From Patescibacteria group bacterium (GTDB taxonomy: Bacteria; Patescibacteriota; Minisyncoccia; Phycocordibacterales; UBA1550), in the NCBI GenBank assembly GCA_038062675.1, contig JBBTWP010000005.1, positions 43,844 to 107,843 of the forward strand: a stretch of 64,000 bases of DNA, in the 5' to 3' direction. A program made the position numbers and the translations under genes. The notes under the pieces were generated by a model. That model did no database searches and was not told where the DNA came from. It saw only the letters and a list, made by a program, of their open reading frames with translations. Positions 26,247-63,009 of this stretch are shown here, piece by piece (the first letter of the stretch is position 1; the number at the start of each line of letters is the position of its first letter).

Positions 26247-26255
26247 GACGGAGCG

Positions 26256-27281: not shown

Positions 27282-27542
27282 TTACAAATATTTTACCACA
27301 GCACATACGCTCCTCAAACAGATCGACCTTTTTGAATTTCCGAGCCCACCTCTTTCTTGCGCGAATAATTCCTTACCCAACGAAAACACGCGCACGTTCT
27401 TCGGCAGATCATACTCACCAACCCCAAGTGCAATGACGGTCACCTGCTCTGCGTGCTTCGCAAACTCACGAATCCACCCATGGAAAAATCCGAGGATATC
27501 GTCATTCTGGTCGACTTTTTGGGTGAGGATAAGGAGTTTCAT
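27282..27542 (-). pseudogene. N-terminal remnant (about 60 aa homologous) of a glycosyltransferase paralogous to 26256-27263
   Basis: MKLLILTQKVDQNDDILGFFHGWIREFAKHAEQVTVIALGVGEYD...FSLGKE aligns with MRLLFITQKINENDDDLAFVILWIKEFINQGASVKVICLEKGDFD...FSLGKE, then goes out of frame. GC is about 50%, versus about 36% for the intact paralog. Confidence 0.7.
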
Positions 27543-27818: not shown

Positions 27819-28085
27819 TTAAAGTGAGCGCATGTGCTTTGCAAAATCCTCAAAAGTGTCAAATGACATTAGATTTTTCTCGGATCGAGCTTCTTCAATC
27901 GCCTTGCGCGTTTCTCTGTTGGGCATACTCAGAGAAAAAGGAATTTCTTTATCATTGGCAATGCGTCGGTAAAATACGTTAATCGCTTCTGAGGGAGATA
28001 TACCGATCTGGGACAATACCATCTCTGCCTTCTTTTTTACTGATGGCTCTATGCGAGCACGAACGAAAGCTGTTTTTGTAGTCAT
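27819..28085 (-). CDS. dinJ: type II antitoxin, DinJ/RelB family
   Basis: MTTKTAFVRARIEPSVKKKAEMVLSQIGISPSEAINVFYRRI is the DinJ ribbon-helix-helix N-terminus. It lies 4 nt upstream of yafQ. Start is taken at ATG 28085. Confidence 0.85.
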   Translation of the reverse strand: MTTKTAFVRARIEPSVKKKAEMVLSQIGISPSEAINVFYRRIANDKEIPFSLSMPNRETRKAIEEARSEKNLMSFDTFEDFAKHMRSL

Positions 28086-28092
28086 ATGTATA

Positions 28093-28114
28093 TTGTAGCA
28101 CATATGTGCTACAA
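28093..28114. promoter_or_regulatory. perfect 22-bp palindromic operator upstream of dinJ-yafQ
   Basis: ttgtagcacatatgtgctacaa lies 8 nt upstream of the dinJ start. This is typical of TA autoregulatory operators bound by the RHH antitoxin. Confidence 0.6.
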
Positions 28115-28122
28115 CGCAATAC

Positions 28123-29808
28123 TTACAAATATTTTACCATATATGTTCCCTCGAGCTGGTATCCTTGTTTGCGATAGTATTCGCGCACGCCGATACCCGA
28201 GATAACCGCGAGTTTTTTGTACCCTGCTTCGCGCGCAATGCGTTCTGCCTCCAAGAGGAGTCGTTTCCCAAACCCCATGTGCTGACTTTGTGTTCCCACC
28301 TCCCCTACTTGCGCCATGCGCCCATACGTGTGAAGCTCGCGCACGAGCGCCGCACCCTGGAGCACCTCAAGCCCTGTCCCCACAAACTCCTGCCCATGAT
28401 TTTTCGGCAACCGCAAGCGCAAAAACGACGCGAGCTTGCCTTCATTCGCCTCTTCAAACGAAAGGAAAATTTCCCGCCCACTTCTCGTACGATACTCTTT
28501 CACCGTCAGTGGAAATTTCTCGAGTTCGACTTCCATCCCGCGCACTTCACGACAGCGAATGCACTTGCATCGCCAATTATTTTTCTTCATATCGTTGAAC
28601 AACCACTGGCGCAGATTTGAAACTTTACTTCCTGCTTGAATGTAGGTCGCAGGAATATCGCGAATCACCCGAATGATGCGCACGTATTTTGGGATTTGTT
28701 TTTTTGCACCCGCAAGCACACTCATGAGCTCCTCATCCGTGTACGGTTTAAATTTCCCCGCTTTCCAAATATCAAAAAGTTCACTTCCTTCGAGCACCAT
28801 GCAGGGATACATCTTAATCATGTCGGGATGAAAATCCTCACTCGAAAAAAGCTCGCCAAACATTTCAATATCACGCTGGGGCGTGCTCCCCTCCAAGTTT
28901 GGCATCATGTGGTACACAATCTTAAATCCCGCATTGCGCAAAAGCTCGGTTGCTTCTTTCACCGCACCAATCTTCATGTCGCGCTTGGTGAGCTCGAGCA
29001 CATCGTCGTCGAGATGCTGCACACCAATCTCCACCTTGGTCACCCCGAGGCTACGCAACCGCTCAAGCTCCTTTGGATTGATATAGTCTGGACGCGTCTC
29101 AATCGAAAGCCCAATGAGGCGCGTTCGTGCAGTTTCGTTTTCGTGCATCATCTCAGCGAATGTTTTTTGCCCCTTCGGCGTCTGCATCTCGGGGGGCACG
29201 TCAAAGTTATTGCATGCACGGTAACACTCCGCAAGAAATTCTTCCTGATACTTCGGATGATAAAAACTCCACGTACCGCCAATGACAATCATTTCGATTT
29301 TGTCGGTCTCGTGGCCGTTCATACGAAGCGCGAGCAAGCGACTCGTGATCTGGTCGTACGGATCAAAATCGTTCGCAAGAGCACGCGCCGCCGCCGGCTC
29401 TTTTGAAAGATAGCTCTTGGGCATGTTTGCTTCGGTAGGGCAATACGTGCATCGCCCTGGGCACGGGTAGGGCTTCGTAAGAAGTGAGACCACCGCAACC
29501 CCTGAGTTGCTCCGCGTTTTGAGCTTCTTAAGCACCAGCTCTGCGTTGGAATTCTTCTCTTCTTCTCCCGCCTCCACAAGCGCCTTATAGAACGCCAAGA
29601 GCTCGGCATTGGTAGGCACATGTGACCCATAAAACTCCTCAGAAATGGCCTCCAAGGGCATCAATTGCCCCGCAGGAAGCACTTTATTCTCCCGTGCGTG
29701 AATCTGCCTCCGCAGATCCAAAATACGCCCATAGAGCGCCGGATCAACCATGATTTTCCGCTTCAGGTTCTGCAGGTCCTTTTCGGTTTTGATATCAGTA
29801 AAAAGCAT
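28123..29808 (-). CDS. Elp3-like radical SAM / GNAT acetyltransferase (Elongator catalytic subunit homolog)
   Basis: Radical SAM cluster motif CPGRCTYCP (C-x3-C-x2-C) and a TIM-barrel rSAM region (LSIETRPDYINPKELERLRSLGVTKVEIGVQHLDD). C-terminal GNAT fold (QHMGFGKRLLLEAERIAREAGYKKLAVISGIGVREYYRKQGY). About 55% GC. Confidence 0.85.
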   Translation of the reverse strand: MLFTDIKTEKDLQNLKRKIMVDPALYGRILDLRRQIHARENKVLPAGQLMPLEAISEEFYGSHVPTNAELLAFYKALVEAGEEEKNSNAELVLKKLKTRSNSGVAVVSLLTKPYPCPGRCTYCPTEANMPKSYLSKEPAAARALANDFDPYDQITSRLLALRMNGHETDKIEMIVIGGTWSFYHPKYQEEFLAECYRACNNFDVPPEMQTPKGQKTFAEMMHENETARTRLIGLSIETRPDYINPKELERLRSLGVTKVEIGVQHLDDDVLELTKRDMKIGAVKEATELLRNAGFKIVYHMMPNLEGSTPQRDIEMFGELFSSEDFHPDMIKMYPCMVLEGSELFDIWKAGKFKPYTDEELMSVLAGAKKQIPKYVRIIRVIRDIPATYIQAGSKVSNLRQWLFNDMKKNNWRCKCIRCREVRGMEVELEKFPLTVKEYRTRSGREIFLSFEEANEGKLASFLRLRLPKNHGQEFVGTGLEVLQGAALVRELHTYGRMAQVGEVGTQSQHMGFGKRLLLEAERIAREAGYKKLAVISGIGVREYYRKQGYQLEGTYMVKYL

Positions 29809-29837
29809 ATTCTGGTAAGATACTTACTATACTACGT

Positions 29838-30533
29838 ATGCGCCAAGAATATGCAAATAAAATCCTCGAGCAATCGCGCTCTGGGTACGAAACTATCGCC
29901 AGCGACTTCTCGCGTACCCGTGGCACATTTTGGCAAGAGCTGATGTTTGTTTACGACATGGTGCCACCCACGTCACGCATCCTCGACATCGGCTGTGGCA
30001 ATGGACGCTTTTTAAGCGCACTCAAAGACGACACGGTAGACTACACCGGCGTTGATTTTTCCAAAGGACTCATCGACATCGCAAAGGAACGCTACCGAGA
30101 ACGGCCACACGCCACATTTCAAACCGCCGACGCACTCGCCCTCCCTTTCTCCAACCACTCCTTCGACATAGCCGTATCGTTCGCCGTCCTCCACCACATT
30201 CCCTCGCGCGCGTATCGCATTCAATTTCTCAAAGAGGCCGCGCGCGTCATCAAACCGGGCAGCACCATCATCCTCACCGCGTGGAATGTCTGGCATTCCC
30301 GCCCATGGACCGTACTAAAATTCGCGCTTAAAAAATTACTCGGTCAAACACACACCGACGTTGGCGACGCACTCCTCGACTTCGGCAAAGAAAAAAACGT
30401 GCGCTTTGTGCACGCCCTCACCGCGCGCGAAATCCGCTCTCTCGCACGCGGTGCTGGCCTCACCATCACCCGCCTCGAGAAAATCCGCCGCCCGAGTGGT
30501 GAAGAAAATTTCTTTGTGGTACTCCAAGCGTAA
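29838..30533 (+). CDS. class I SAM-dependent methyltransferase (possibly Trm9/SmtA-like)
   Basis: Motif I is ILDIGCGNGRFLSAL, then VDFS, then DIAVSFAVLHHIP. Divergently transcribed from the Elp3-like gene with only 29 bp between the start codons. Confidence 0.8.
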   Translation: MRQEYANKILEQSRSGYETIASDFSRTRGTFWQELMFVYDMVPPTSRILDIGCGNGRFLSALKDDTVDYTGVDFSKGLIDIAKERYRERPHATFQTADALALPFSNHSFDIAVSFAVLHHIPSRAYRIQFLKEAARVIKPGSTIILTAWNVWHSRPWTVLKFALKKLLGQTHTDVGDALLDFGKEKNVRFVHALTAREIRSLARGAGLTITRLEKIRRPSGEENFFVVLQA

Positions 30534-30666
30534 CTCAAAAAACATCTGCCCAATTTGCTTGACGTACCCCCCCCCTCAAATGCTAGACTGCGCCGAGATG
30601 TACTTGCTTGCGCATTCCGCACGAGCATTTAGTTTGACAACGCAACAATACAGAAAGGGGTAATCT

Positions 30667-31935
30667 ATGAGACACTTGCAAAGGTGGTTTTTTGTTTTTA
30701 TGGTGAGTATGTGGTTCGCATCCTTGACACACGCCGACCAGATGACCTACCAACCGGGACCAGAAGGAACGGATGTTTGGATTACCAACACCTATGACTA
30801 TGGGAGTGACTATGGTGTTGATAACGACAAACTTGAGGCGGGCGGCTGGGGCGATGAGTATCGCTTTCTCTGGAAACCCGATTTCACGGGTTTCCCGCAA
30901 AATGCAACCTCGGCTGCTTTGTGGATGTTTCCTTACCCTCGCGGAGATGCTTCAACGCCAGTAAGCATGGCTGTTGATTTGATGACTACGCCATGGAACG
31001 AGGACACTGGGTGGTACAATACGGTAATGAATGGAATACCAGTTGGTGTTCTTTCAGCTCCAACACCAGGGCAATGGTACGGTATAAACATTACTCAAAT
31101 CTACAATCTGTGGAAGGCGGGAACGTACGCCAACCACGGCTTTAGATTTAGGCCGACGGGAATCAACAATCAGTTCTCGCAATTTTTGAGTTCTGATTTT
31201 TGGTACGGTCCGTATCGCCCGAAGGTTGTGGTTACCTACAAGGGCGCGGATTTACAATTTCCTCTTGCGAAACCGAGACCGGCGGGCTTTATTGGGCCAA
31301 TCATTCCTGTGTTCCTTTCACCGTATGCGGCACAGATTAATTCTGTGTTGGACCATTCGTTGACCACGGAAGCGTATTGCAAAGATGATGTCATTGTTGC
31401 ATATACGGGAGAGCGTGCGGAGGAGAAGTATGGAACATCTGGATGGATTGGTACGCCTTCGTCCACAAGATGTTCGGGCAAGACTTTAAACGGATACCGA
31501 CAAGACACCGTCGGAACACCTTTTGTTGTGAATGGAAACTATGGTGGAGGGGCATTTTTGTTCTATGACGGGCATGATGGGTATGACTTTCAAGCCGAGA
31601 ATGGAACAGATGTTCATGCTGCTGCGGATGGAAAAGTGTACAATTCAAACGCTGTTGGGGAAGAGAATGTGAGGATCGAGCATCCGAGCGGATATGTTAC
31701 TCAGTATTGGCACATGCCAAAACGATATGTAGTAGAGGGACAACTTGTTTCAAAAGGTCAAAAAATCGGTATCGTAGGAAAAGGGCACCTGCACTTTACG
31801 GTGAAGAAAGGTAAGCTTTCAGAACCAGCAAAACTGCAACTCGTCGACCCCTACGGCTGGAAAGGCGAGTATGGCACGGATCCACTCAAAGTTGACGGTA
31901 AAGACAATGCTTGTCTGTGGGCGGTTTGTCAGTAG
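30667..31935 (+). CDS. secreted M23-family (LytM-type) metallopeptidase with N-terminal accessory domain
   Basis: Signal peptide (WFFVFMVSMWFASLTHA). The C-terminal LytM domain carries HxxxD (YDGHDGYDF) and HxH (GHLHFTV) zinc ligands plus GQKIGIVG. RBS AAAGGGG lies 7 nt upstream. Confidence 0.85.
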   Translation: MRHLQRWFFVFMVSMWFASLTHADQMTYQPGPEGTDVWITNTYDYGSDYGVDNDKLEAGGWGDEYRFLWKPDFTGFPQNATSAALWMFPYPRGDASTPVSMAVDLMTTPWNEDTGWYNTVMNGIPVGVLSAPTPGQWYGINITQIYNLWKAGTYANHGFRFRPTGINNQFSQFLSSDFWYGPYRPKVVVTYKGADLQFPLAKPRPAGFIGPIIPVFLSPYAAQINSVLDHSLTTEAYCKDDVIVAYTGERAEEKYGTSGWIGTPSSTRCSGKTLNGYRQDTVGTPFVVNGNYGGGAFLFYDGHDGYDFQAENGTDVHAAADGKVYNSNAVGEENVRIEHPSGYVTQYWHMPKRYVVEGQLVSKGQKIGIVGKGHLHFTVKKGKLSEPAKLQLVDPYGWKGEYGTDPLKVDGKDNACLWAVCQ

Positions 31936-32016
31936 TTCCTTTGTGTTGTTGATGTTAAAAAGTTAAGCAATCATTCAATCTCCTTGCCGTTCGCGGTGAG
32001 GGGATTTTTTTTGTAA
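31842..32016. repeat. 175-bp direct repeat, copy 1 (3' end of M23-peptidase gene plus terminator region)
   Basis: Identical to 32719-32893 over 175 nt: tcgtcgacccctacggctggaaaggcgagtatggcacggatcc...gcggtgaggggattttttttgt. Confidence 0.9.
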
Positions 32017-42940: not shown

Positions 42941-43009
42941 AGCACATTAGGGCATATCTCAAAATAAAAACGACCCCCAGAAAAAATGGGGGCCGGTACT
43001 ACAAAAAAT

Positions 43010-43552
43010 TTAGATTTCGAGGACAACACAACCCTGCACGGTCATAAAGTTCCCTTTTTCTGCAGCAGAAAGAACTTTTGCTACTGCTTCGTTGGTCAAA
43101 CGTTCAAGTGAATCACGCTTCATAAACACAGCGTAGTGAATACCGAGTCCACTTCGCAAATAACGCAAAGCATGATGCTTTGCATCCTGAATCAAAGAAT
43201 CGTTGACCTCGTCGCCATCACCGGAAACGCCTGAAACGCCTGAAACGCCGACAACTTTGACATTGCTGTCATGCGTCAGCTTGTACGCATTTTTATGTAA
43301 CCGCAAAAAATCACGTAATAAATCAGCCGATCCCGGTAGATTTATGCAAGAAGGGAGGATAAATAAAGAAATATGTTGATCTCCGATTTTTCGCACAGCG
43401 GCAATGTCTTCAACCGCTTCATCAAAAACCGTTTCCGATGGAACTCTCAAAGTGTTCAAGCAAAACACAAACCCGATCTGAGGAGCTTGTCGACTGCCGA
43501 CGTGGTCGCTCTCACCAAAATCAATTACATTGCTATCTTTTCCACTCGTCAT
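43010..43552 (-). CDS. hypothetical protein with GVSGVSGVSG in-frame microsatellite
   Basis: 180-aa ORF with no recognised family. Contains a 3x 9-bp tandem repeat (43223-43249) encoding GVSGVSGVS. Confidence 0.45.
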   Translation of the reverse strand: MTSGKDSNVIDFGESDHVGSRQAPQIGFVFCLNTLRVPSETVFDEAVEDIAAVRKIGDQHISLFILPSCINLPGSADLLRDFLRLHKNAYKLTHDSNVKVVGVSGVSGVSGDGDEVNDSLIQDAKHHALRYLRSGLGIHYAVFMKRDSLERLTNEAVAKVLSAAEKGNFMTVQGCVVLEI

Positions 43553-43646: not shown

Positions 43647-45080
43647 TTATTTCTCTTCCGTTATTTCAAAATCCTCAGCTGAGATTTCATCGGACTTCTT
43701 TTGCCCTCTCCCAAAGCGTAGCCCTACAAGCGCAAATACGCCCAAAAAAGCAACCGCAATATACCAGACCAAAAGACTTTCTTTTTTAGGCTGAACACTA
43801 GTAGCCCCGATTGCAATAACATCAGACAAAGGTTCTAGAGCAGTAGCAAACTGAGTATCACCTTTTAGCCGAGGAGGGACTTTTTGCACAGACACCACCG
43901 GCAAGGATGCCTGCGTCACTATGGAAACATCTTTTTGCACAGATGTTTCTGTTAAAATCATCGGCTTTTCTTTAAGAGAAATAACGGCTGTGCCATTTGG
44001 ATACCGAAGCTCCGCAACACTCCCATCCGGTGTTGAAAGTCTCGTCACCTCAGAAGGAAGCGTCAAAGTCTTTCGAGCTCCCACAAGTGTATTTTTGGGA
44101 AGTACGAATGCGCTGTTCCCAACACCCACCAACCACAAAGACAAATCAATTTCGTCGCTGCCAAGATTTTCAACAGCAACAAAAGAACGCAAAGCATCTC
44201 CGCCTGTCCGAAGAATCAATTCGGGCTTTACCACCGTCACCCACACACGGTCAGATGCGGAATAATATCCCGACGAAGCATCGAGCACCACCACATACTC
44301 GCCCGGATAATAATAGGTATGTAAAACTGATTGCCCTTCGGCTGAGCCTCCGTCACCAAACGACCACACCATGCGCGCGTTTTCAATCGGTTCTTTTTTG
44401 AGACCAAACACTTTGCCGGAAAAAGTCATCGGCGCACCCGTTACGACAGTGCGCGCTGACGCACCCGCATCCACAATTATTTGTGAATCGACAGGAAATG
44501 TCGAGGTGTTTGCCACCGATGTGTTTGATGAAGCGCTCGCAGATGAATTTGAAGACGAAATATTTGATCCTGCCACAAATGTGTCGGCAGAGACTCCGAT
44601 CCCGGGAGTAGGGACTCCTCCTTTCCATATACCCCCCATTTTCTGCAGTGATTTTCCATCCTCCGTCGCACCCATGTCGCTTGCATACACTACCGTATCC
44701 GAAACAGTACCATCCGGCATCTTGAATGCAATCGTTTCGCCTCCATTTTTTAAAGAGAAAGAACTATCGAGGACAATTCCCGAAAATCCAGAATGGTCAC
44801 TTAAAAATATCCCTGCGTTGTCAGCAATAATTGCGTATGCATTTGGCGCCAACGCACCATCCCCTTTTTCTGTAGTCAACCCATGACTGCTTCCACCCTC
44901 TACAAATTTTGATTTTAAAAGATCAACAGCACTTCCTCCACTATTCCAAACTTCCACCCACTCATGCCCCGTATCCGCCCCTTTGGGGTCGTACATAATT
45001 TCTGAAATAACAACCTGCGCAGAAACCATCCTTGCAAACAAAAATAAAAAAAATAATATAATCCACCGCATACTATTCAT
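43647..45080 (-). CDS. secreted/membrane-anchored surface protein with lamin-tail domains (LTD) and a PKD-like domain
   Basis: Signal peptide (ILFFLFLFARMVSAQ). LTD signature VVISEIMYDPKGADTGHEWVEVWNSG. PKD-like WSFGDGGSAEGQSVLHTYYYPGEYVVVLDAS. A second LTD-like segment and a C-terminal TM anchor (LLVWYIAVAFLGVFALVGL). Confidence 0.72.
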   Translation of the reverse strand: MNSMRWIILFFLFLFARMVSAQVVISEIMYDPKGADTGHEWVEVWNSGGSAVDLLKSKFVEGGSSHGLTTEKGDGALAPNAYAIIADNAGIFLSDHSGFSGIVLDSSFSLKNGGETIAFKMPDGTVSDTVVYASDMGATEDGKSLQKMGGIWKGGVPTPGIGVSADTFVAGSNISSSNSSASASSNTSVANTSTFPVDSQIIVDAGASARTVVTGAPMTFSGKVFGLKKEPIENARMVWSFGDGGSAEGQSVLHTYYYPGEYVVVLDASSGYYSASDRVWVTVVKPELILRTGGDALRSFVAVENLGSDEIDLSLWLVGVGNSAFVLPKNTLVGARKTLTLPSEVTRLSTPDGSVAELRYPNGTAVISLKEKPMILTETSVQKDVSIVTQASLPVVSVQKVPPRLKGDTQFATALEPLSDVIAIGATSVQPKKESLLVWYIAVAFLGVFALVGLRFGRGQKKSDEISAEDFEITEEK

Positions 45081-46947
45081 CCCCCTTCAAAATCGCTTTT
45101 AAAACATCTTCGGGAACTTCTTTTATTTCTGCGCGCCGTGGTTCTTCGGGTTTTGGTGTAGGTGCTGGTGTAGGTCGAGGCACAAATGGTGGAGGTGTGG
45201 GTGGTTTGCTTTTTGCAGGTTCCTGATCTTTGAGTACGCCGGCGAGCGCAGACTTGAGTGAATCCATATTTTTTTCACTGGGACCCTTTGTTGGTGCCGG
45301 TGGAATCGCTCCCTTTTCAACTGTTTTTTGGGCAAGAGTGGAAAGAGGAGCACGTGGTGCAGGCGCAGGTGTTTGGCGAGGGGTAGGAGTACTAGTTACC
45401 ACTGGTTCTCGTGCAAGCTCTTTAAATGCCTGTGCAAAAGGTTTTTCAGCTTGTGGTAGTTCTTCTCGTTTTGAGGGAGGTGGAGTTTGATACGTTGATT
45501 TTTGCGGAGAGGATGTCGACAATACCGCAGGTGCATCGGTAGCACGCCGACCATACGAAGGGTTGGCCCCAACAGCGACAGCCCCTTGAGGAGGGCGCAC
45601 AGGAACTGGTTGAGGAGAGGAGGGTGTTGCTGGAGAAATCGAACCACCTCCCTCTGCATACCATTTTGCAATCGCATCTTCGATCAGTGGACGGGGGTGA
45701 CCATAGAGCAAACGCGAGGATTCAATAACTGCTTGTTTGCTTGATTTTGCTGGAGGTGCAATCGGACCCATAGTGACAGAGGAAAACGGATGCGACGCCA
45801 CGCCGTCAATCATGAGCTTTAAATATATTTGCGTAAACCCAAGACTCACCATGTCCTCCGCCGTAAAGACCGGCGCATATTCTTTTTCAAGCATCTCTGC
45901 ATCGGGCGCACCAACGCGAAACATAATCTGCGTCCCGACGTTGCCAAAAATAGCATCGGCGACTTTTTCATCCATCTGCTTGATATACTGATGTGCAACC
46001 ACGAGCGCAAGTTTGTATTTTCGCGCTTCAGACAAAATGTCGGCAAAAGATTCGTTGGCAAACGACTGAAACTCATCCACATACATATAAAAATTGGGGA
46101 GTTTTTTCAGGTCACTCTCCACCAAGTCTGCGCGTGACATCGCCGCAAGATAAATCTTGGTAATAATCATACCTCCCAAAAGATTTGCATTCCCTTCACC
46201 AAGTTGTCCTTTGGAAAGATTCACAATGAGAATCTTTCTCTCATCCATCATCTTACGCAAGTCGAAACTTGAATGGGGCTGTCCGATGATATTTCGGATG
46301 AGCGGATTTGAGGTAAATTGCCCCAACTTGTTTTGAATACCCGGGACGGCATCCTTTGCATAGTTCTCACTATATTTTGCAAATTCGTCAACCCAATATG
46401 CCTTCACCGATGGGTCTTTCACGTTGTCAACAACTTTCTTGCGGTACACTTTATCGGTGAGCAATCGACTTACACCCAGAAGCGTTGACTCCGGATACTC
46501 GAGAAGTGCAAGGAGTGAATTCATGAGAATATATTCCATGCGTGCTGAAAAAGTCTCCGGACCCCAAATCTTTTTGAACGCAGACAAAAGCCCGTTGGCG
46601 ATGAGGTGACGCTTGTCAGGACCCACGTCCTCCATTACGTTGAAAGAGACCGGGTTGTCGGTATCAAACGGCGCAAAATAAACAACGTCCTTTACGCGCT
46701 CTGGTGGAATATAATCCAAAATCATCGCGGCGGATTTGCCGTGCGGGTCGATGAACGCAAACCCTTCCCCATTTCTAATATCCTGCACCACCATGTTCTC
46801 AATCAGTGTAGACTTTCCCATCCCCGTCTTGCCAATGATGTACATGTGGCGCGTGCGGTCTTCGGCTTTGATGCCAAACGGGATGCGCTTGTTGCGCCGA
46901 TCCGTCTCCGCAAAATACGTTATGCGATTTTTATCGTAGAGATACAT
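45073..46947 (-). CDS. TraD/VirD4-like (T4SS-DNA-transfer-type) P-loop ATPase with long Pro-rich C-terminal tail
   Basis: Walker A YIIGKTGMGKSTLIENM plus the FIDPHG motif typical of type IV coupling-protein-like ATPases. Walker B LVVAHQ. The C-terminal ~230 aa are P/T/A-rich low complexity (PPTPPPFVPRPTPAPTPKPEEP). Confidence 0.7.
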   Translation of the reverse strand: MYLYDKNRITYFAETDRRNKRIPFGIKAEDRTRHMYIIGKTGMGKSTLIENMVVQDIRNGEGFAFIDPHGKSAAMILDYIPPERVKDVVYFAPFDTDNPVSFNVMEDVGPDKRHLIANGLLSAFKKIWGPETFSARMEYILMNSLLALLEYPESTLLGVSRLLTDKVYRKKVVDNVKDPSVKAYWVDEFAKYSENYAKDAVPGIQNKLGQFTSNPLIRNIIGQPHSSFDLRKMMDERKILIVNLSKGQLGEGNANLLGGMIITKIYLAAMSRADLVESDLKKLPNFYMYVDEFQSFANESFADILSEARKYKLALVVAHQYIKQMDEKVADAIFGNVGTQIMFRVGAPDAEMLEKEYAPVFTAEDMVSLGFTQIYLKLMIDGVASHPFSSVTMGPIAPPAKSSKQAVIESSRLLYGHPRPLIEDAIAKWYAEGGGSISPATPSSPQPVPVRPPQGAVAVGANPSYGRRATDAPAVLSTSSPQKSTYQTPPPSKREELPQAEKPFAQAFKELAREPVVTSTPTPRQTPAPAPRAPLSTLAQKTVEKGAIPPAPTKGPSEKNMDSLKSALAGVLKDQEPAKSKPPTPPPFVPRPTPAPTPKPEEPRRAEIKEVPEDVLKAILKGDE

Positions 46948-47074
46948 TGGTTCTATTGTATCACGACCTAAACAAAAAATCGCGCTGGAGGCGCTATTTT
47001 TTGTTTAGGCTGGGCTGAATGGCGGATTCAACCCACCAACGCAACACCTTGTTGGCATCTGTGTCATATTTTCA

Positions 47075-47623
47075 CTAAAACAAAATCTCTACGAGCAACG
47101 AAATTGCGAGATATGTAAGAGGAAAAACAAAAGCGACAAATAAGACTATGTACGATAATCTTCCTATTTTTTTATTCGTGTCCGCAGAAATATTAGGTTC
47201 GAGGTGAGCAGGCCAGAAAAAATAAGCAAATATGGAAGATATGATGCAGAGAAAAAAAGCACCGTAAAGATACACTATGCCGAGACTCCATGCCAAAGAT
47301 TCATTCGGGTCGGAAGATGAAGAAGCTAAAAATAAGAATAAGAGAAAGAGTATGTCAAGAAATAAAGTCACATATCCAATACTTAAAAAACTATTTTTTG
47401 ATCCATATTTTTTTGCAAAATAAAAAGGAGGAACAGTGCATGCGATAAATCCTCCGATTGGTAAAATCAGGTTAAAACCAGAAGTTAGAAAGAGTGTTGT
47501 TAGGATTGAGGAGATCCCCAACACATACCAAAAACTTTTTGAGCCAAGTCCTCTTTGTCCATTATTTGATTCCACAATGAATACATCATACCTGAAACGC
47601 CCCGCAGGCGCAATATTTTGCAT
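47075..47623 (-). CDS. hypothetical polytopic membrane protein
   Basis: 182 aa with 4-5 hydrophobic helices and no recognised motif. Confidence 0.5.
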   Translation of the reverse strand: MQNIAPAGRFRYDVFIVESNNGQRGLGSKSFWYVLGISSILTTLFLTSGFNLILPIGGFIACTVPPFYFAKKYGSKNSFLSIGYVTLFLDILFLLFLFLASSSSDPNESLAWSLGIVYLYGAFFLCIISSIFAYFFWPAHLEPNISADTNKKIGRLSYIVLFVAFVFPLTYLAISLLVEILF

Positions 47624-49529: not shown

Positions 49530-50303
49530 TTATTGATTCGATGTGCTTGTTGCAGTACTTGTTGGCGTTGTGGTGGCACGAAGCTTGTTGACGCCCGGCT
49601 TCACAGAAGCAATCGCCTCAGCTACACTACGATGCGCTCCTTGAATACTCTTGATTGCTTCTTTTACCAAAGCTTCAACTTTCTTCATTTCTTCGCGAGG
49701 TGCCTCACTTGCGAGAGCGGCAAGAGTAGCTGTTTTTACTTGAGCAACTTTCACACGCGCTGCATCAAGTTTTACCTTTGCGTCAGCAAGTTTTGCGCGA
49801 GCGACAGCAACATTGATTCCTTGCGTGGTAAGTTTATCGAGTGACATTCCTACGCGATCAGCAAGTTTCTGCACGCGTGCAATTGCCGCATCCAAACGAG
49901 CCCCAACGAGCTCTGCATGTTTCTTTGCAATCTCGAGGCGTTTCTCTTTAAATCCGTCTCTCATTTGTCCACGTGCTTCCGTGGTAGATGCCCGACGATT
50001 TTTCATATCATCACGCATATCTCCGCGCGCCTCAGTGGTCGAAGCACGAAGATTTTTAATATCTCCACGCATGTTTTCACGCGCCGCTGTCGTAGATGCG
50101 AGAGTTGCTTTTGCATCCATGCGCACTTCTTTGCGTGCTTCATTTATTTCTTTGCGCGCTTCGGCAGTAGGACGAGGAACTGGGCGAGTATCGTTCTGCT
50201 CCATGGCTGGAACAATAGCGACAAGATTTCTTGTGTCCGCACTTGCCGAAAAAGCACCGAATGCGAGCAACGTAACAAGAGCGATATTTATTTTCTGATA
50301 CAT
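49530..50303 (-). CDS. secreted coiled-coil protein with three 18-aa tandem repeats
   Basis: The start is placed at ATG 50303 (MYQKINIALVTLLAFGAFSASA, a signal peptide). Repeats are ASTTAARENMRGDIKNLR, ASTTEARGDMRDDMKNRR and ASTTEARGQMRDGFKEKR. The rest is Ala/Lys-rich coiled coil, with a C-terminal Thr/Ser-rich tail. Confidence 0.65.
   Translation of the reverse strand: MYQKINIALVTLLAFGAFSASADTRNLVAIVPAMEQNDTRPVPRPTAEARKEINEARKEVRMDAKATLASTTAARENMRGDIKNLRASTTEARGDMRDDMKNRRASTTEARGQMRDGFKEKRLEIAKKHAELVGARLDAAIARVQKLADRVGMSLDKLTTQGINVAVARAKLADAKVKLDAARVKVAQVKTATLAALASEAPREEMKKVEALVKEAIKSIQGAHRSVAEAIASVKPGVNKLRATTTPTSTATSTSNQ
49938..50099. repeat. 3 x 54-bp in-frame tandem repeat inside CDS
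   Basis: Encodes the three 18-aa ASTT(A/E)AR..MR....R units of the 49530-50303 protein. Confidence 0.8.
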
Positions 50304-50475
50304 AACGAATAATAATTTAATTGCAATATCGCCCTCAACGAGAGACGACAAAAACAACACCAACGACTAATAAAGCGCACATTTCATCTGATACCCATCA
50401 AGTATAGCAAACGACTCAACTCACGCAAGAGCACCCCCTCAAAAAAAGAGCTTTCGCGCAACAAACAAAAGCCCT

Positions 50476-58905: not shown

Positions 58906-61900
58906 TTAGTTCGTTAAAATATCTTCACCAACATCTTGCGTGCTAGTAGCAGTGATTGCCGGCGTTGTTGTGGCAATAGGGACTACAATAGGATTTGGGT
59001 CAACCACATTCACTATACGCATTGCTTCTGCGAGCATCGCTCCTGCGCCGTTAATAACTTTGTAAACAATTTCGTGCGTACCCGTCACGCTTGTATCGAT
59101 AATTGGGGTTGTCACCTCTGCGCCATTTTGAAACGCCCGTACTCCCAAATTCACAAGTACCAAATCCGTCGAACTTGCAGTGGCACCAAGATCCCCCCAT
59201 GCTGTTTTCAAATTAACCGTCTGTGGGTTATTCCCGCTAACGATAATTTCTACAGGAGCAGTGGTTGTTGCAATCGGCATAACACTCGCAACCACGCCCG
59301 CATTTTGAGAACCCGGAGTCGTGGCGCCCGAAAGCAATTTATCAAGCTCCACCTTGGTAACACACGTCTCCCCGCTTACACTATCCCCCACGCAGAGCGT
59401 CTTCGTGTGAACACGGTTTGCAAAGAAATCTCCTATGCCATTTGCAACACTTGCGAATTTCTCCGTAATCTGCGCAAAAATATTCGAGAAGAAACTTGAA
59501 GCAAATGAACGAGATTCAGGGGTCGAGCTTGCGGTGGTACCTGCGATGGTTTCAAGGTTGAGGTTAAGCTCTTGCACCGCACCTACCGTGAGGCCCGTGA
59601 TGCGCTCAAAATGAAGCGTGAGTGGCAACCCATCGTAACCATAATCAACGAGCCGAGGATCAACCTTCTCCACTTCTTCCGCAATCAAACCAACAGATGC
59701 AGGACTCTCTTCAGGGCTTGCATATTCGCTTTTATAATCAAACGATACGACTCGCAACTTACCTAATGTCGAAAGTGCCTCTCGAGGAGTGAGTGCCTGA
59801 ATATTCTCTTTGAAACGTTGCGAGGATGGCGTACAGGTACCACCACCGGCGTCGGTGATGTCTTTCCCTGTTGTAATACAGAGCGCATTCCCCGTTGCGG
59901 AAGACGTCAGTCCGTTAAGTGCCACCGTACCATTCACTGAAAACGTACGCCATGGCGTAGTAGAAGCAATACCAATATTCCCGAGGAAATACCCCGTTCC
60001 ATTGTCATTAAACTTTGCAATGGTTGTTGAAGCATTGTTGGCGATCTCGAATGCTTGACCAGTGCCGGTACCACTTCCCCAGACAGAGAGCTTAGAATAA
60101 GGGGTCGTGGTGCCGATGCCCATAAGCCCCCCTACGGTAATCGCGGCCCGCGTACCACCATTAGTGAGGAATCGCAAATCATGATTACTCTTAGTGCCAA
60201 GAACTCCCACACCACCATTACTATTTGTTCCAGCGCAAGATGAACCAGCATGACCATGACAATCACCGATTACCATATCCACAGTACTATCGTTATTGCG
60301 TACTGTCAACGTAACATCAGTCGTGGAATTCCCTTCAAAAAGAAACTGTGTTGTAGCATTGGGACTTTGGTAGGTAGTTCCATTTGCAAGCACTGCCAAA
60401 GCAGCATACCCCGCATCATTTGTATTAATTCCCACAAAAGGATCGCCACCATAACCACTTCCTGTATAAATAAGAGGCTTTGAAGTGTTCCCCGAGCTAT
60501 TGTACACTGCAAACGGAGAATTCTGCCCCGTCTTCGCCTGCACTGCAAAGCGGTTTCTTCCCGGCGTCGTGGTCCCCACAAAGAATGAACCCATCGCGGT
60601 GGAGGTTGCCGTGGTACTCGTCGCCGTAAAGTACCCTGCGATGGCTTCGTTGCCCAACGTGGAGGAACCTTCAACGGAGAGGGTGTAGGCAGGGGTTGAA
60701 GTGGAAAGACCCAATCTACCTGCCGCGCTTAATGTAAGGTACTCCACAGCATTATTGCGAAGGTTTAAAAGTTTACCTGTTGTTGCTGCGCCTGATGAAT
60801 CAAGAAAGATGCCTTGAGCTGCTGACGCTGTTGAAGTGGAAGTGAGGAGCAAGCTAAGGGCAGACGCATTTGTGTCGACACCAGAACCATTGTGTGTGAT
60901 TTTCACTGTTCCTTTGCCTATTTCATTCCCCGTCACACCAAATGCTGAGTAATCTTCTTTTACTGAAGTGACGGTCGCGCATTCAAGGCTACTCCCTGTC
61001 ACAAGATCGCAGTTTACAACCAACGCACCACTCGTTCCATCTTGGTCAAAATAAGCTACCTGCTGGTCAAAGGCGGAATTATCCGCTGTTATTGCCAAGA
61101 GTCTGCCCGAAGCTGTAGCTCCTTGATTGTTATAAATAACTAACCCTGCCCCTGTTGAGTTGGTCGTCGTAAGGTTCACCACGCCTCCTGTTGAAACCGA
61201 CGCTGAATAATCTTTTCCTGACGGAGCAATAATTCCTAAAAGGTTTTGATTTGTTGAGTCAGTTCCAATACGGAGAGTATTCGCAAACGTACTCGTGGCG
61301 GTGGTAGAAGTGGCAATAATATAGTTTACCGTAGGAGATGTGGATGCCGTCAGTGTAGAGCCGTCGCTATGCAACCACCCCTGACCAAACGAGGTTTGCC
61401 CTGTTCCACCTCGCGCAACAGAGATTGTGCCACCATTCCAAGTACCTGATGTGATCGTACCCAACGTGGTGAGGTTGGTCGAACCCGCCCACGTGGAGAG
61501 TGCAGTGTTTTCAACATTGTTGAGTGCTAGAGATGATTTGAGGTTTGCGGTGGAGGTGCCTGCGAGGGTTCCCGTGCCGGATGCATAGAGAAGGTCACCG
61601 AGTGTATAAGAAGAGAGGCCGGTACCACCACGAGCGACCGAGAGCTGCCCACTCCAGCCCAGCGCATGTGCTGTTCCTGAGCTTGCAATGGTAACATTGG
61701 TGTCGTCCGTGAATGTTTGAGTGGCACCGGTAAGTCCATTTAACGACGTGAGACCACTGCTCCCTCCCCCCAGTGCTGTGCCATTAAAATAGAGCGAACC
61801 TCCGGTGTTGTAGAGACGATTTGTTGTCACCGATGGTGCGCTCACTTGCGCAAAATATGCAGGTCCGTTTACTGAAAGTGTGTCCGAAGGAGATGAAGTG

Positions 61901-62841: not shown

Positions 62842-62961
62842 TTTTTTTCTCTGTATTCGAATAAAAAGATTACTCCCCATACATTTCATTTTATCATACT
62901 TATGCACAATAAAAAACAAATTTCTGTGCATAAGTATCGCAATAAACAAAATGTGCCCCAC

Positions 62962-63009
62962 ACAACCCAAACCCCCATATCACTGGCGTGATATGGGGGT
63001 TTGGGTTGT
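62962..63009. terminator. hairpin terminator (22-bp stem)
   Basis: acaacccaaacccccatatcac-tggcg-tgatatgggggtttgggttgt, lying downstream of the minus-strand gene that ends at 63031. Confidence 0.7.

What the first reader, a model, noticed from the sequence alone, without database searches (positions are those of the whole stretch)
43647..46947. Lamin-tail/PKD surface protein coupled to a TraD/VirD4-like ATPase with about 230-aa proline-rich tail
The ATPase (Walker A GKTGMGKST, DPHG motif) overlaps the LTD/PKD gene by 8 nt (45073-45080), suggesting translational coupling. Lamin-tail domains are common in extracellular nucleases and DNA-binding surface proteins. TraD-like coupling ATPases translocate DNA. 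The long PTPAP-rich tail is unusual for this ATPase family. The pair may be a DNA-uptake or secretion-associated module.
Basis: partly seen in the sequence, partly recalled or inferred. Interest (0 to 1): 0.55.

Follow-up and report, generated by a model that had tools for sequence, protein, structure and literature searches.

The report
Orphan coupling-type ATPase with DNA-receptor-like partner
An ultra-small (Patescibacteria) bacterium carries a conserved two-gene unit, a cytoplasmic motor ATPase of the kind that feeds DNA into conjugation channels plus a surface protein whose counterparts in related genomes carry a known DNA-binding domain, which makes it a testable candidate for how these bacteria take up DNA.

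Summary
The 624-aa ATPase (45073-46947, minus strand) has the fold of a type IV coupling protein (T4CP: VirD4/TraD/TrwB). It has a nucleotide-binding domain, an inserted all-alpha domain and intact Walker A/B motifs, but no membrane anchor. A 192-aa proline-rich disordered tail carries three conserved short motifs. The next gene encodes a Sec-exported, C-terminally anchored surface protein (LTD-PKD-LTD). Its likely start is 1 nt after the ATPase stop, not an 8-nt overlap.

The ATPase is a highly conserved chromosomal gene of Paceibacteria-type Patescibacteria, at a fixed position (MurD-MurC-RsmI-DUF4015-ATPase-...-GT4 cluster). The 64-kb window holds no T4SS, relaxase or competence genes.

About 40% of related species have the LTD partner, and it is always immediately downstream, even where the neighbourhood is rearranged. 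In other relatives the same slot holds an orthologue whose first LTD is replaced by a ComEA-type DNA-binding domain. 33 such metagenomic loci have the ATPase directly upstream.

Best reading (about 0.45): an extracellular DNA receptor plus a T4CP-derived cytoplasmic motor, acting in DNA uptake. Function is inferred, not shown. This is a new variant of known parts, and moderately to highly interesting.

The parts
45073..46947 (-). Gene for a TMD-less T4CP-like (VirD4/TraD/TrwB-fold) P-loop ATPase, 624 aa
   Evidence: ORF. Pfam TrwB_AAD_bind, TraG-D_C and DUF87. Foldseek hits to TrwB, DotL, Cag-beta and HerA. No hydrophobic segment: maximum KD19 is 1.19.
45652..46947 (-). Conserved ATPase core, aa 1-432 (58-80% identical across Paceibacteria-type relatives)
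   Evidence: Alignments A1 and A2. AF2 pLDDT is mostly above 80. 5805 cluster representatives at E<=1e-30.
46807..46833 (-). Walker A motif GKTGMGKST (aa 39-47)
   Evidence: Invariant in 60 sequences. Aligns to the TrwB P-loop.
46738..46749 (-). DPHG motif (aa 67-70), equivalent to DPNG of TrwB
46243..46611 (-). Predicted all-alpha domain (aa 113-235) inserted in the nucleotide-binding domain, at the position of the T4CP AAD
   Evidence: AF2 secondary structure shows helices 113-235 between strands 88-91 and 239-243. Structural matches to TrwB.
46069..46092 (-). Walker B region FYMYVDEF (aa 286-293)
   Evidence: Aligns to LWLFIDEL of TrwB. D291 and E292 are invariant.
45076..45651 (-). Proline-rich disordered C-terminal tail, aa 433-624 (192 aa, 21% Pro)
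   Evidence: Composition. pLDDT below 50. Length and sequence vary in homologues apart from three motifs.
45421..45447 (-). Tail motif 1, EKPFAQAFK (aa 501-509)
   Evidence: Conserved among the closer homologues (consensus EKPFAxAFK). Not detected in more distant ones.
45229..45285 (-). Tail motif 2, GPSEKNMDSLKSALAGVLK (aa 555-573), a predicted amphipathic helix
   Evidence: L564, A567 and L568 are invariant in 60 sequences. AF2 helix 558-573. Hydrophobic moment 0.37.
45076..45123 (-). Tail motif 3, the C-terminal KEVPEDVLKAILKGDE (aa 609-624), an acidic amphipathic helix and a hallmark of the family
   Evidence: E610, P612, E613, L616 and L620 are invariant. A degenerate form, [KE]E[IV][PS]E[ED]xLxx[IM]L, occurs with or without an LTD partner. 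Hydrophobic moment 0.55.
46955..46963 (-). Extended -10-like box TGATACAAT, 7 nt upstream of the ATPase ATG (short-leader or leaderless transcript?)
   Evidence: Read from the sequence. This is a consensus match only.
46967..47009 (-). Long hairpin (19 bp, -24.4 kcal/mol, z -6.6) between the upstream membrane-protein gene and the ATPase. It resembles a bidirectional terminator and would insulate the ATPase operon.
45081..45087 (-). Shine-Dalgarno-like AAGGGGG inside the end of the ATPase gene, 9 nt before the ATG at 45071
43647..45080 (-). Gene for the surface partner protein (477 aa from the first ATG, probably 474 aa from the ATG at 45071): signal peptide, LTD, Ser-rich linker, PKD, LTD-like domain, linker, TM helix, acidic cytosolic motif
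45018..45071 (-). Signal peptide MRWIILFFLFLFARMVSA
   Evidence: Hydrophobicity scan. Homologue N-termini.
44616..45023 (-). Lamin-tail domain 1 (aa 20-155). This is the module replaced by a ComEA HhH domain in orthologous-slot proteins.
   Evidence: Pfam LTD 2e-19. AF2 beta-sandwich with pLDDT above 90. Domain swap.
44229..44477 (-). PKD domain (aa 202-284)
   Evidence: Pfam PKD 1.5e-9. Foldseek match to the ColG PKD domain, TMt 0.7-0.78. 37% identical to the PKD-LTD2 region of HhH-type P0444.
43986..44219 (-). Second LTD-like beta-sandwich (aa 288-365)
   Evidence: A second Pfam LTD hit in homologues P0343 and P0333. AF2 model. Conserved N305, W316, F325 and P328.
43710..43775 (-). C-terminal transmembrane helix (aa 436-457)
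   Evidence: KD19 2.54. AF2 helix 437-457. W439 invariant.
43650..43682 (-). Cytosolic acidic-aromatic motif SAEDFEITEEK (family consensus ADDFEIIE)
   Evidence: I473 invariant in 42 sequences. Also present in the HhH-type variant L150 (...QEFEIE).
42971..42995 (-). Strong intrinsic terminator after the next, non-conserved gene (43010-43552). It marks the distal limit of any read-through transcript.
   Evidence: -17.2 kcal/mol, z -4.1, U-run.

Best explanation
This is a vertically inherited chromosomal two-gene operon of a Paceibacteria-type Patescibacterium.

Gene 1 makes a cytoplasmic P-loop ATPase derived from type IV coupling proteins. It has a nucleotide-binding domain plus an all-alpha domain and intact catalytic motifs, and it presumably forms a hexameric ring. 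It has lost, or never had, the N-terminal membrane anchor. Instead it carries a long disordered tail with three short conserved motifs that probably tether it to partners.

Gene 2 is translated right behind it. It makes a Sec-exported surface protein held in the membrane by a C-terminal helix, and it displays LTD-PKD-LTD outside the cell. In related genomes the same gene slot encodes the same protein with its first LTD exchanged for a ComEA-type helix-hairpin-helix dsDNA-binding domain. The ectodomain is therefore most likely a receptor for extracellular DNA.

The pair is then best read as the outer and inner ends of a DNA-uptake route: a surface DNA receptor and a cytoplasmic DNA-dependent motor. 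The membrane channel (ComEC or the Patescibacterial T4SS) would be encoded elsewhere.

Shown here: the domain identities, the absence of a TMD, family conservation, operon structure, conserved adjacency, and the LTD-to-HhH swap.
Inferred: DNA binding by the LTD form, DNA as the ATPase's substrate, import as the direction, and any physical contact between the two proteins.
For: T4CP identity:
- Pfam hits TrwB_AAD_bind and TraG-D_C.
- NCBIfam hits SXT_TraD and the CD1115 VirD4-like family, as homology only.
- The AF2 model has an all-alpha insert at aa 113-235.
- Foldseek matches TrwB (TMt 0.57-0.61), DotL and Cag-beta.
- Catalytic motifs are invariant, and there is no TM segment.

Not on a mobile element:
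- The order MurD-MurC-RsmI-DUF4015-ATPase-(partner)-epimerase-GT4 is conserved in most of the 80 species loci and down to 46% identity.

Functional linkage of the pair:
- The partner, when present, is always immediately downstream, with a gap of -20 to +169 nt.
- Reciprocal look-ups starting from LTD homologues find the ATPase directly upstream.
- 30 of the top 120 LTD homologues share a contig length with one of the top 120 ATPase homologues.
- The pair persists in a rearranged neighbourhood (L092; 24% identity, E 2e-22) and in L091.
- Pairwise distances of the two proteins correlate (r = 0.54).

DNA link:
- Orthologous-slot proteins have signal peptide, ComEA HhH, PKD, LTD and TM (Pfam HHH_3 75.8 bits; NCBIfam TIGR00426 61.7-67.4 bits against a cut-off of 53.1).
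- They are homologous to the window protein over PKD-LTD2 (37% identity, E 1e-21).
- They lie directly downstream of the ATPase in L049, L078 and L095, and in 26 of 29 informative metagenomic loci plus 7 short-form loci.

Background:
- T4CPs are DNA-dependent translocase-type ATPases (established knowledge on TrwB and TraD).
- LTD is attached to the extracellular nuclease ExeM, and deleting it lowers in-vitro activity (PMC6085458).
- ComEC is found in most Minisyncoccota MAGs, but ComEA in only some (PMC13293708).
- T4CP homologues in Patescibacteria are rarely near virB4. The one in S. epibionticum is dispensable, as is competence, whereas the T4SS is essential (PMC12102498, PMC11665869).
Against: - The window's own partner has LTD, not HhH. 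No DNA binding is known for bacterial LTD domains, and their role is unresolved (PMC6085458).
- About 60% of related species lack the partner at this position, and its presence is patchy on the ATPase tree (17 Fitch changes). The ATPase's conserved function therefore does not depend on it.
- No ComEC, ComFC, DprA, pilus or T4SS gene is in the 64-kb window.
- The conserved neighbours are cell-wall and glycan genes.
- Canonical T4CPs export substrates. Import by one would be unprecedented.
- Most HhH-PKD-LTD variants end at the TM helix with no cytosolic tail, so direct docking of the ATPase on the receptor cannot be general.
- Sequence similarity to solved T4CPs is weak (E 0.004), and all curated T4CP equivalog cut-offs are missed.
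Confidence: 0.45

Rival explanations
1. It is the genuine coupling protein of the Patescibacterial (monoderm-type) T4SS, which is encoded elsewhere near dnaA/virB4. It would deliver proteins or DNA outward to the host cell. The LTD/HhH-PKD protein would be the accompanying surface adhesin, comparable to PrgB-type adhesins of Gram-positive conjugation systems, which also bind extracellular DNA.
For: T4CP fold and motifs. t4cp genes are often distant from virB4, and 5,713 VirD4-type homologues are reported in 2,918 Patescibacterial genomes (PMC12102498). Tail motifs could bind T4SS parts or adaptors, as the C-terminal extensions of F TraD and DotL do (established knowledge). The ectodomain is a string of Ig-like beta-sandwiches with S-layer and adhesin-like structural matches.
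Against: There is no TMD. No T4SS gene or relaxase is in the window. Only 148 of 5,713 homologues are near virB4, and the S. epibionticum t4cp is dispensable although the T4SS is essential (PMC12102498). A ComEA-type domain is the hallmark of DNA import receptors, not of export adhesins.
Confidence: 0.25
2. The ATPase works in envelope biogenesis or cell division: as an FtsK-like chromosome or septum motor, or as an assembly motor for wall glycan or S-layer. The surface protein would be one of its envelope clients. The link to DNA would be incidental.
For: It has a fixed position between peptidoglycan-precursor genes (MurD, MurC), RsmI and the DUF4015 glycosidase-like gene on one side, and a large GT4/epimerase glycan cluster on the other. 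In about 25 loci the GT4 gene directly follows the ATPase, with a gap of -14 to +207 nt. The core is very highly conserved, which suggests a housekeeping role. One source names an LTD homologue 'S-layer-like protein array protein'.
Against: There is no FtsK_SpoIIIE or gamma-domain signal. The gene has its own promoter-like box and is insulated from the upstream genes by a strong hairpin. The pair survives in a neighbourhood without any envelope genes (L092). No known glycan or S-layer pathway uses a T4CP-type ATPase (established knowledge). Gene order in reduced genomes is often conserved without a functional link.
Confidence: 0.12
3. The two genes are merely neighbours, through inherited synteny in a compact genome, and have unrelated functions.
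For: The partner is absent in about 60% of related loci and patchy on the tree. The wider gene order is conserved as a whole.
Against: Whenever either form of the partner is present, it is directly downstream on the same strand with minimal spacing. This holds across 24-60% partner identity and in a rearranged context. The Shine-Dalgarno sequence for gene 2 lies inside gene 1.
Confidence: 0.08
4. It is a remnant or cargo of an integrated mobile element or defence island (a mad8-like ATPase).
For: The best PADLOC hit is mad8 (63.8 bits). Tail-less relatives at about 50% identity sit between integrases or within defence genes. 724 plasmids carry relatives, mostly non-mobilizable ones.
Against: No integrase, transposase or defence gene lies nearby. 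GC content is ordinary. The chromosomal position is stable across species. The mad8 hit is generic to the whole family, and no other MADS gene is present.
Confidence: 0.03

Closest known systems
Type IV coupling proteins (TrwB of R388, VirD4, F TraD, DotL, Cag-beta)
   Same: P-loop nucleotide-binding domain with Walker A/B. An all-alpha domain inserted at the same position. The DPxG motif after the P-loop. A C-terminal extension, as in F TraD and DotL. Pfam TrwB_AAD_bind and TraG-D_C both above their cut-offs. Best TM-scores in Foldseek.
   Different: No N-terminal transmembrane domain. No adjacent T4SS or relaxase. Chromosomal housekeeping-like location. Only about 13-15% sequence identity. 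Misses every curated NCBIfam T4CP cut-off. The tail is Pro-rich with its own motifs.
'Orphan' VirD4-type T4CP homologues of Patescibacteria (Quinonero-Coronel et al. 2025, PMC12102498)
   Same: Almost certainly the same set of genes. NCBI names this protein 'type IV secretion system DNA-binding domain-containing protein'. The paper reports such genes as abundant, rarely near virB4, non-essential in S. epibionticum, and possibly exapted.
   Different: In the passages of the paper that I searched (term search), it does not describe the TMD-less architecture, the tail motifs, the fixed synteny, or the LTD/ComEA-like partner. Those are the additions made here.
ComEA / ComEC / ComFA DNA-uptake machinery of monoderm bacteria
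   Same: The logic is the same: a membrane-anchored extracellular dsDNA receptor plus a cytoplasmic ATP-driven DNA motor. Orthologous-slot partners carry a bona fide ComEA HhH region (TIGR00426 above cut-off).
   Different: The motor is of T4CP type, not a ComFA DEAD-box helicase. The receptor is anchored C-terminally and extended by PKD and LTD domains. In this window the HhH domain is replaced by LTD. No ComEC lies nearby.
ExeM/NucH-type extracellular nucleases with an N-terminal LTD (PMC6085458)
   Same: A signal peptide followed by an N-terminal LTD, and a C-terminal hydrophobic anchor. The LTD is associated with handling of extracellular DNA.
   Different: The window protein has no nuclease domain, only Ig-like domains.
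mad8 of the MADS defence system, and tail-less soluble T4CP-like ATPases on plasmids and islands
   Same: Same broad ATPase clade: mad8 profile 58-81 bits across family members, and about 42-52% identity to the plasmid and island versions shown.
   Different: Those versions lack the tail and sit among integrases, transposases and restriction or defence genes. This one is chromosomal, has the tail, and is paired with a surface protein.
DUF8128-TrwB_AAD_bind proteins (membrane-anchored paralogue type)
   Same: About 50-55% identical ATPase core, including the N-terminal beta-hairpin signature xTxFAxTxxRxxxxxFGIKxxDR.
   Different: They carry a roughly 350-460-aa N-terminal extension with TM helices and a DUF8128 domain. 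None is present in the window.

Membership tests
Type IV coupling protein (VirD4/TraD/TrwB) | P-loop NTPase domain with Walker A and Walker B | tested here: met
   GKTGMGKST (aa 39-47) and FYMYVDEF (aa 286-293). Both align to TrwB motifs and are invariant in 60 homologues.
Type IV coupling protein (VirD4/TraD/TrwB) | All-alpha domain inserted in the nucleotide-binding domain | tested here: met
   The AF2 model has helices at aa 113-235 between strands 88-91 and 239-243. TM-score normalised to TrwB is 0.57-0.61. This is a predicted structure only.
Type IV coupling protein (VirD4/TraD/TrwB) | Passes curated family thresholds | tested here: inconclusive
   Pfam TrwB_AAD_bind 39.4 (cut-off 20.5) and TraG-D_C 29.6 (cut-off 22) pass. 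T4SS-DNA_transf 17.9 (cut-off 20.1) fails. All NCBIfam T4CP models fall far below their cut-offs, for example SXT_TraD 51 against 366.
Type IV coupling protein (VirD4/TraD/TrwB) | N-terminal transmembrane domain anchoring the hexamer | tested here: not met
   The ATPase core begins at residue 1. Maximum 19-residue Kyte-Doolittle mean is 1.19, with no segment at or above 1.6.
Type IV coupling protein (VirD4/TraD/TrwB) | Genetic association with a T4SS (virB4 etc.) and/or a relaxase | tested here: not met
   None was found in the Pfam scan of 49 of the main ORFs across the 64-kb window, and the neighbour genes conserved in the 80 species loci are cell-wall and glycan genes. The rest of the genome was not available.
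Type IV coupling protein (VirD4/TraD/TrwB) | Hexamer formation, DNA-stimulated ATPase activity, substrate recruitment | not testable with these tools
   Needs biochemistry or multimer modelling.
FtsK/SpoIIIE | FtsK_SpoIIIE motor domain signature and gamma (KOPS-reading) domain | tested here: not met
   No PF01580 hit at E<=0.01. FtsK is not among the 50 best-ranked Foldseek matches that were listed.
HerA | N-terminal HAS-barrel plus HerA ATPase core without an all-alpha insert; partner nuclease NurA or a defence effector | tested here: not met
   The DUF87 hit covers only the P-loop region, aa 19-74. HerA structures have the best Foldseek E-values but lower TM-scores (0.35-0.43) than TrwB. No NurA-like or effector gene is adjacent.
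MADS defence system (mad8) | mad8-type ATPase encoded with the other mad genes (methyltransferase etc.) | tested here: not met
   The mad8 profile hit is 63.8 bits. The neighbours have no PADLOC hits, and the hit is generic across the family.
Lamin-tail domain proteins (PF00932) / PKD (PF00801) | Domain models above the gathering score | tested here: met
   LTD 70.4 bits (cut-off 34.3). PKD 38.1 (cut-off 23.5). A second LTD is seen in homologues.
ComEA DNA receptor | ComEA helix-hairpin-helix repeat region (TIGR00426 / PF12836) | tested here: not met
   The window protein has no HhH hit. The domain is present, above cut-off, only in orthologous-slot proteins of other genomes (P0444, P0448 and the L049 protein).
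ComEA DNA receptor | Binds extracellular dsDNA and is required for transformation | not testable with these tools
   Needs EMSA and genetics.

The most novel reading that the evidence does not exclude
A coupling-protein-derived ATPase has been exapted in Patescibacteria as the cytoplasmic motor for DNA import. It would be a functional analogue of ComFA, running a T4CP in the unconventional inward direction. It would work with a previously unrecognised family of C-terminally anchored DNA receptors whose DNA-contact module is either a ComEA HhH domain or a lamin-tail domain. This would explain the thousands of 'orphan' T4CP genes in this phylum. It would assign a DNA-binding role to bacterial LTDs. 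It would also identify part of the route by which nucleotide-auxotrophic ultra-small bacteria scavenge DNA.
Probability: 0.3. Interest if true: 0.8.

Novelty: new variant of a known kind. Interest (0 to 1): 0.6.

Why it matters
Patescibacteria cannot make nucleotides, and how they obtain them is an open question. Their T4SS is essential but its function is unknown. Their abundant T4CP homologues are unexplained: they are rarely near virB4, and the one tested is dispensable (PMC12102498, PMC11665869).

This locus links one conserved T4CP-like ATPase family, by operon structure, to a surface protein family that in sister lineages carries a bona fide ComEA DNA-binding domain. That gives a concrete hypothesis that can be tested by experiment: a receptor plus a motor for DNA uptake.

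It also offers a first functional clue for bacterial lamin-tail domains. And it defines a TMD-less T4CP architecture with a disordered, motif-bearing tail that could be probed for binding partners.

Tried and rejected
1. HerA/FtsK classification. HerA has the best Foldseek E-values, but its TM-scores are lower, there is no HAS-barrel and no FtsK Pfam hit. Rejected.
2. Defence (MADS). The mad8 hit is generic to the family and there are no other mad genes. Rejected.
3. Neighbouring genes as part of the module. The upstream 182-aa polytopic membrane protein (47075-47623), the downstream 180-aa protein (43010-43552), p277, p110 and DUF218 have no homologues in 87 related loci. They are not part of a conserved module.
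4. A split N-terminal (DUF8128/TM) domain or a paralogue in the window. None found.
5. Docking of the ATPase on the partner's cytosolic ADDFEIIE motif. This is attractive: the motif is conserved (I473 is invariant) and is shared with one HhH variant. But many LTD partners and most HhH-PKD-LTD variants end at the TM helix. It is kept only as a lineage-specific possibility.
6. Dependence of the ATPase C-terminal motif on the presence of LTD. No dependence was seen.
7. Association with type IV pilin genes. Pilin genes lie immediately upstream in only 3 loci (L014, L068, L088), which is too few to interpret.
9. The main text of Wang et al. 2023 does not mention VirD4, VirB4 or FtsK by those words.
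10. Profile search against PDB sequences adds nothing beyond TrwB and DotL at E of about 0.004-0.08.

Full report
OBSERVATION

The first carries GKTGMGKST at aa 39-47 and DPHG at aa 67-70. It matches Pfam TrwB_AAD_bind (39.4 bits, cut-off 20.5, over aa 22-346), TraG-D_C (29.6 bits) and DUF87 (26.7 bits, P-loop region only). The second matches LTD (70.4 bits) and PKD (38.1 bits).

Three details need correction.
- The mechanical 8-nt overlap uses the first ATG. A second ATG at 45071 lies 1 nt after the TAG stop and has AAGGGGG 9 nt upstream. The nearest homologues (P0270 at 95% identity with 474 aa, and P0271) start at that methionine. The genes are tightly coupled either way.
- The tail runs from aa 433 to 624. 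That is 192 aa rather than about 230, with 21% proline.
- The partner also has a signal peptide, a second LTD-like domain, a C-terminal TM helix and a short cytosolic tail.

THE ATPASE

Its core (aa 1-432) is very strongly conserved. It is 58-80% identical in the alignments of 18 and 60 homologues, which are named Yonath-, Nomura-, Pace- and Parcubacteria, Minisyncoccia and the like. In a library of 50%-identity cluster representatives, 22,410 match at E<=1e-3 and 5,805 at E<=1e-30.

An AlphaFold2 model built on the 60-sequence alignment is confident over most of the core. It shows a P-loop alpha/beta domain with an all-helical insert at aa 113-235, between strands 88-91 and 239-243. That is the topological position of the all-alpha domain of coupling proteins.

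Foldseek against the PDB returns HerA, DotL, Cag-beta, TrwB and VirB4, all at probability 1.0. HerA has marginally the best E-values. The highest target-normalised TM-scores (0.57-0.61) belong to TrwB. There is no FtsK_SpoIIIE hit, and the HerA-type hit covers the P-loop only.

Sequence similarity to solved T4CPs is weak (E 0.004), and every curated NCBIfam T4CP model is missed by a wide margin. The protein has no hydrophobic segment at all, so it lacks the N-terminal membrane domain of classical T4CPs. I therefore call it a T4CP-fold, T4CP-derived ATPase, not a member of any curated T4CP family.

THE TAIL

The tail is predicted to be disordered (pLDDT below 50 for aa 439-557 and 572-608). Its length and sequence vary among homologues. 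It nevertheless carries three conserved short motifs:
- EKPFAQAFK (aa 501-509), found in closer relatives only.
- An amphipathic helix, ...LKSALAGVLK (aa 555-573). L564, A567 and L568 are invariant in 60 sequences.
- The C-terminal acidic amphipathic helix KEVPEDVLKAIL (aa 609-620). E610, P612, E613, L616 and L620 are invariant.

A degenerate form of the last motif, [KE]E[IV][PS]E[ED]xLxx[IM]L, is recognisable in nearly all of the 80 species loci, whether or not an LTD partner follows. The tail is therefore a hallmark of this Patescibacterial clade, not an oddity of this one gene.

Relatives outside the clade come in three other architectures:
- Tail-less forms (420-460 aa).
- Forms with a 350-460-aa N-terminal TM plus DUF8128 extension.
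- One tandem double ATPase.

THE PARTNER

AlphaFold2 and Pfam give this layout:
- signal peptide
- LTD (aa 20-155)
- Ser-rich linker
- PKD (aa 202-284)
- a second LTD-like sandwich (aa 288-365)
- a disordered linker
- a TM helix (aa 436-457)
- a cytosolic end...SAEDFEITEEK

Structural neighbours are generic Ig-like arrays, such as S-layer proteins, Hoc and the ColG PKD domain. No enzyme domain is present. In 42 homologues the C-terminal consensus is ADDFEIIE, with I473 invariant. However, about a third of LTD partners end right after the TM helix.

CONTEXT

The window is chromosomal and dominated by envelope functions. It encodes SecA, MurB, a Wzy_C/TPR protein, a flippase, many GT2 and GT4 glycosyltransferases, epimerases, methyltransferases, MurC- and MurD-like ligases, RsmI, DUF4015, RF, two tRNAs and a sigma factor. 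The Pfam scans of 49 of its main ORFs found no T4SS, relaxase, pilus, competence, integrase or defence genes.

A 19-bp hairpin (-24.4 kcal/mol, z -6.6) separates the upstream gene from the ATPase. An extended -10-like TGATACAAT lies 7 nt before its ATG. A strong terminator follows the non-conserved gene after the partner.

CONSERVATION OF THE ARRANGEMENT

In 80 species-representative genome loci, the order Mur ligases - RsmI - (small) - DUF4015 - ATPase - ... - epimerase/GT4 recurs on one strand.

A homologue of the LTD partner is present in 30 of these loci (75 of the 80 extend far enough to show the downstream gene). In every case it is the gene immediately downstream, with a gap of -20 to +169 nt. 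In about 25 loci a GT4 gene follows the ATPase instead.

LTD presence is patchy on the ATPase tree (17 Fitch changes against a mean of 24 for shuffled labels). The partner evolves much faster than the ATPase (mean distance 0.81 against 0.28). The two distance matrices correlate (r = 0.54). This pattern fits an ancestral pair with repeated loss of the partner.

Several further checks agree:
- Starting from LTD homologues at about 40% identity, the ATPase is found directly upstream.
- 30 of the 120 best LTD homologues share a contig length with one of the 120 best ATPase homologues.
- A 58%-identical ATPase lies in an unrelated neighbourhood (RNase HII, L32, NusB, RNase III, SMC, VanY, SpoU). 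It is still followed, 62 nt later, by a full-length homologue of the partner (24% identity over 411 aa, E 2e-22).
- Another distant ATPase is overlapped by an ORF with a signal peptide and an LTD.

The other adjacent window genes have no homologues in any related locus. The conserved unit is therefore the pair.

THE DECISIVE LEAD

In two of the 80 loci (L049 and L078), the gene in the partner slot begins with a signal peptide followed by a ComEA-type helix-hairpin-helix domain instead of LTD1. That domain scores Pfam HHH_3 75.8 bits, and NCBIfam TIGR00426 'ComEA helix-hairpin-helix repeat region' 61.7-67.4 bits against a cut-off of 53.1.

A search with the L049 protein found 16 clusters with the architecture HhH-PKD(-LTD). 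Aligned, they share the signal peptide, HhH, Ser/Thr linker, PKD, LTD-like domain, linker and C-terminal TM helix. Their PKD-LTD part is 37% identical to the window protein (E 1e-21).

One of them, P0444, lies 10 nt downstream of a 588-aa ATPase orthologue in the usual MurD-MurC-RsmI-ATPase-X-GT4 order.

A metagenome scan seeded with this family gave 29 loci with enough upstream sequence. In 26 of them the ATPase core lies directly upstream on the same strand. Seven further short HhH-plus-TM loci show the same arrangement. One of those ends ...QEFEIE, which is the cytosolic motif of the LTD partners.

The partner is thus a modular surface protein whose N-terminal module is either an LTD or a bona fide ComEA DNA-binding domain.

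INTERPRETATION

ComEA is the extracellular dsDNA receptor of natural transformation. T4CPs are DNA-dependent translocase-type ATPases. Both statements are established knowledge.

LTDs accompany extracellular nucleases such as ExeM, where deleting the LTD lowers activity in vitro, although the role of LTD is unresolved (PMC6085458).

Minisyncoccota MAGs mostly have ComEC, but only some have a recognisable ComEA (PMC13293708).

T4CP homologues in Patescibacteria are numerous, rarely near virB4, and dispensable in S. epibionticum. Competence is also dispensable there, whereas the T4SS is essential (PMC12102498, PMC11665869).

Together these make 'surface DNA receptor plus cytoplasmic DNA motor of a DNA-uptake route' the best-supported reading. 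I give it about 0.45.

The steps that are shown and the steps that are inferred are listed under the best explanation. The main weaknesses are these:
- The window's own protein has LTD, not HhH.
- Most relatives lack the partner.
- No channel gene is nearby.
- Import by a T4CP would be unprecedented.
- Direct docking through the cytosolic motif cannot be general.

The rivals are:
- A genuine T4SS coupling protein with an adhesin (0.25).
- An envelope or division role, suggested by the synteny (0.12).
- Mere neighbourhood (0.08).
- A mobile-element or defence remnant (0.03).

COMPARISON WITH WHAT IS KNOWN, AND NOVELTY

The ATPase belongs to the population of 'orphan' VirD4-type homologues already counted in Patescibacteria (PMC12102498), and public annotation already names both proteins generically.

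I found four things in no paper of the searchable library:
- The TMD-less architecture with a motif-bearing disordered tail.
- The fixed chromosomal position.
- The conserved operon with an LTD-PKD-LTD surface protein.
- The LTD-to-ComEA-HhH domain swap in that partner.

I rate this as a new variant of known kinds of parts, with interest 0.6. It would surprise T4SS and CPR specialists moderately. It also turns two open questions into concrete experiments: what the orphan T4CPs do, and how these bacteria take up DNA.

Noticed in passing
window 58906-62970 (-): A 1354-aa ORF (TTG start) combines a phage-type hyaluronidase HylP domain (78.5 bits), a Peptidase_S74 intramolecular-chaperone domain (as in endosialidase tail spikes) and an Ig-like surface domain. 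This is a tail-fibre-like protein in a chromosomal context. It is followed at 63031-63942 by a protein with PG_binding_1 repeats.
   Followed up: no
window about 11400-27300 (-), and 28000-32000: A long run of same-strand genes has low GC (34-40%). It encodes GT2 and GT4 glycosyltransferases, methyltransferases, two UDP-GlcNAc 2-epimerases, GDPD, a nucleotidyl transferase and an AsnB-like amidotransferase. It looks like a large surface-glycan cluster with composition distinct from its flanks. It abuts a 50%-GC block carrying a radical SAM protein, a methyltransferase and an M23 peptidase.
   Followed up: partly
window 46955-47009 (-): A 19-bp A/U-flanked hairpin resembles a bidirectional terminator. 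It is immediately followed by TGATACAAT only 7 nt before the ATPase start codon, which suggests a leaderless or very short-leader mRNA.
   Followed up: partly
window 49530-50363 (-): A 277-aa signal-anchored protein has internal repeats (...ASTTEARGDMRDDMKN...) and coiled-coil character. It has no family and no homologue in 87 related loci.
   Followed up: partly
window 43010-43552 (-): A 180-aa protein downstream of the pair contains a GVSGVSGVSG repeat. It has no family and no homologue in related loci. A possible promoter of its own (TTGCAA-16-TATAAG with TG) lies in the 94-nt spacer.
   Followed up: partly
L088 665-1893; L014 739-1233; L068 7777-8244: Type IV pilin-like genes (GFTLIE prepilin motif, Pfam N_methyl) lie immediately upstream of the ATPase orthologue in three loci. 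This could be a further link to the pilus/competence apparatus, or it could be chance, since pilin genes are abundant in CPR.
   Followed up: partly
L085 (P0204), L086 (P0240), L094 (Sulfitobacter plasmid NZ_CP081110.1): Tail-less relatives of the ATPase (42-52% identical) sit in mobile or defence contexts. One lies beside a resolvase, a SIR2/ThsA-like protein, an rve integrase, PD-(D/E)xK, RadC, a ResIII helicase, an OLD/GajA-like ATPase and a type III methyltransferase. One lies between two tyrosine integrases next to a 998-aa paralogue. One is on a non-mobilizable plasmid beside transposases. 724 plasmids carry relatives, 542 of them typed as non-mobilizable.
   Followed up: partly
P0185 (1210 aa); P0166, P0180, P0198 and others: The family also contains a tandem double-ATPase protein and many proteins with an N-terminal TM plus DUF8128 extension of unknown function.
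   Followed up: partly
window 7864-10047 (-) and 9659-11404 (+): The mechanical ORFs of the Wzy_C/TPR protein and the Polysacc_synt flippase overlap by about 390 nt on opposite strands. The flippase domain starts only at aa 178, so its GTG start is probably too far upstream.
   Followed up: no
L024, L027, L028, L029 (gene after the ATPase): In four loci the gene immediately downstream of the ATPase is a 630-660-aa polytopic Wzy_C (O-antigen-ligase-like) plus TPR protein. It belongs to the same family as window 7864-10047, which again ties the ATPase position to envelope-glycan genes.
   Followed up: partly
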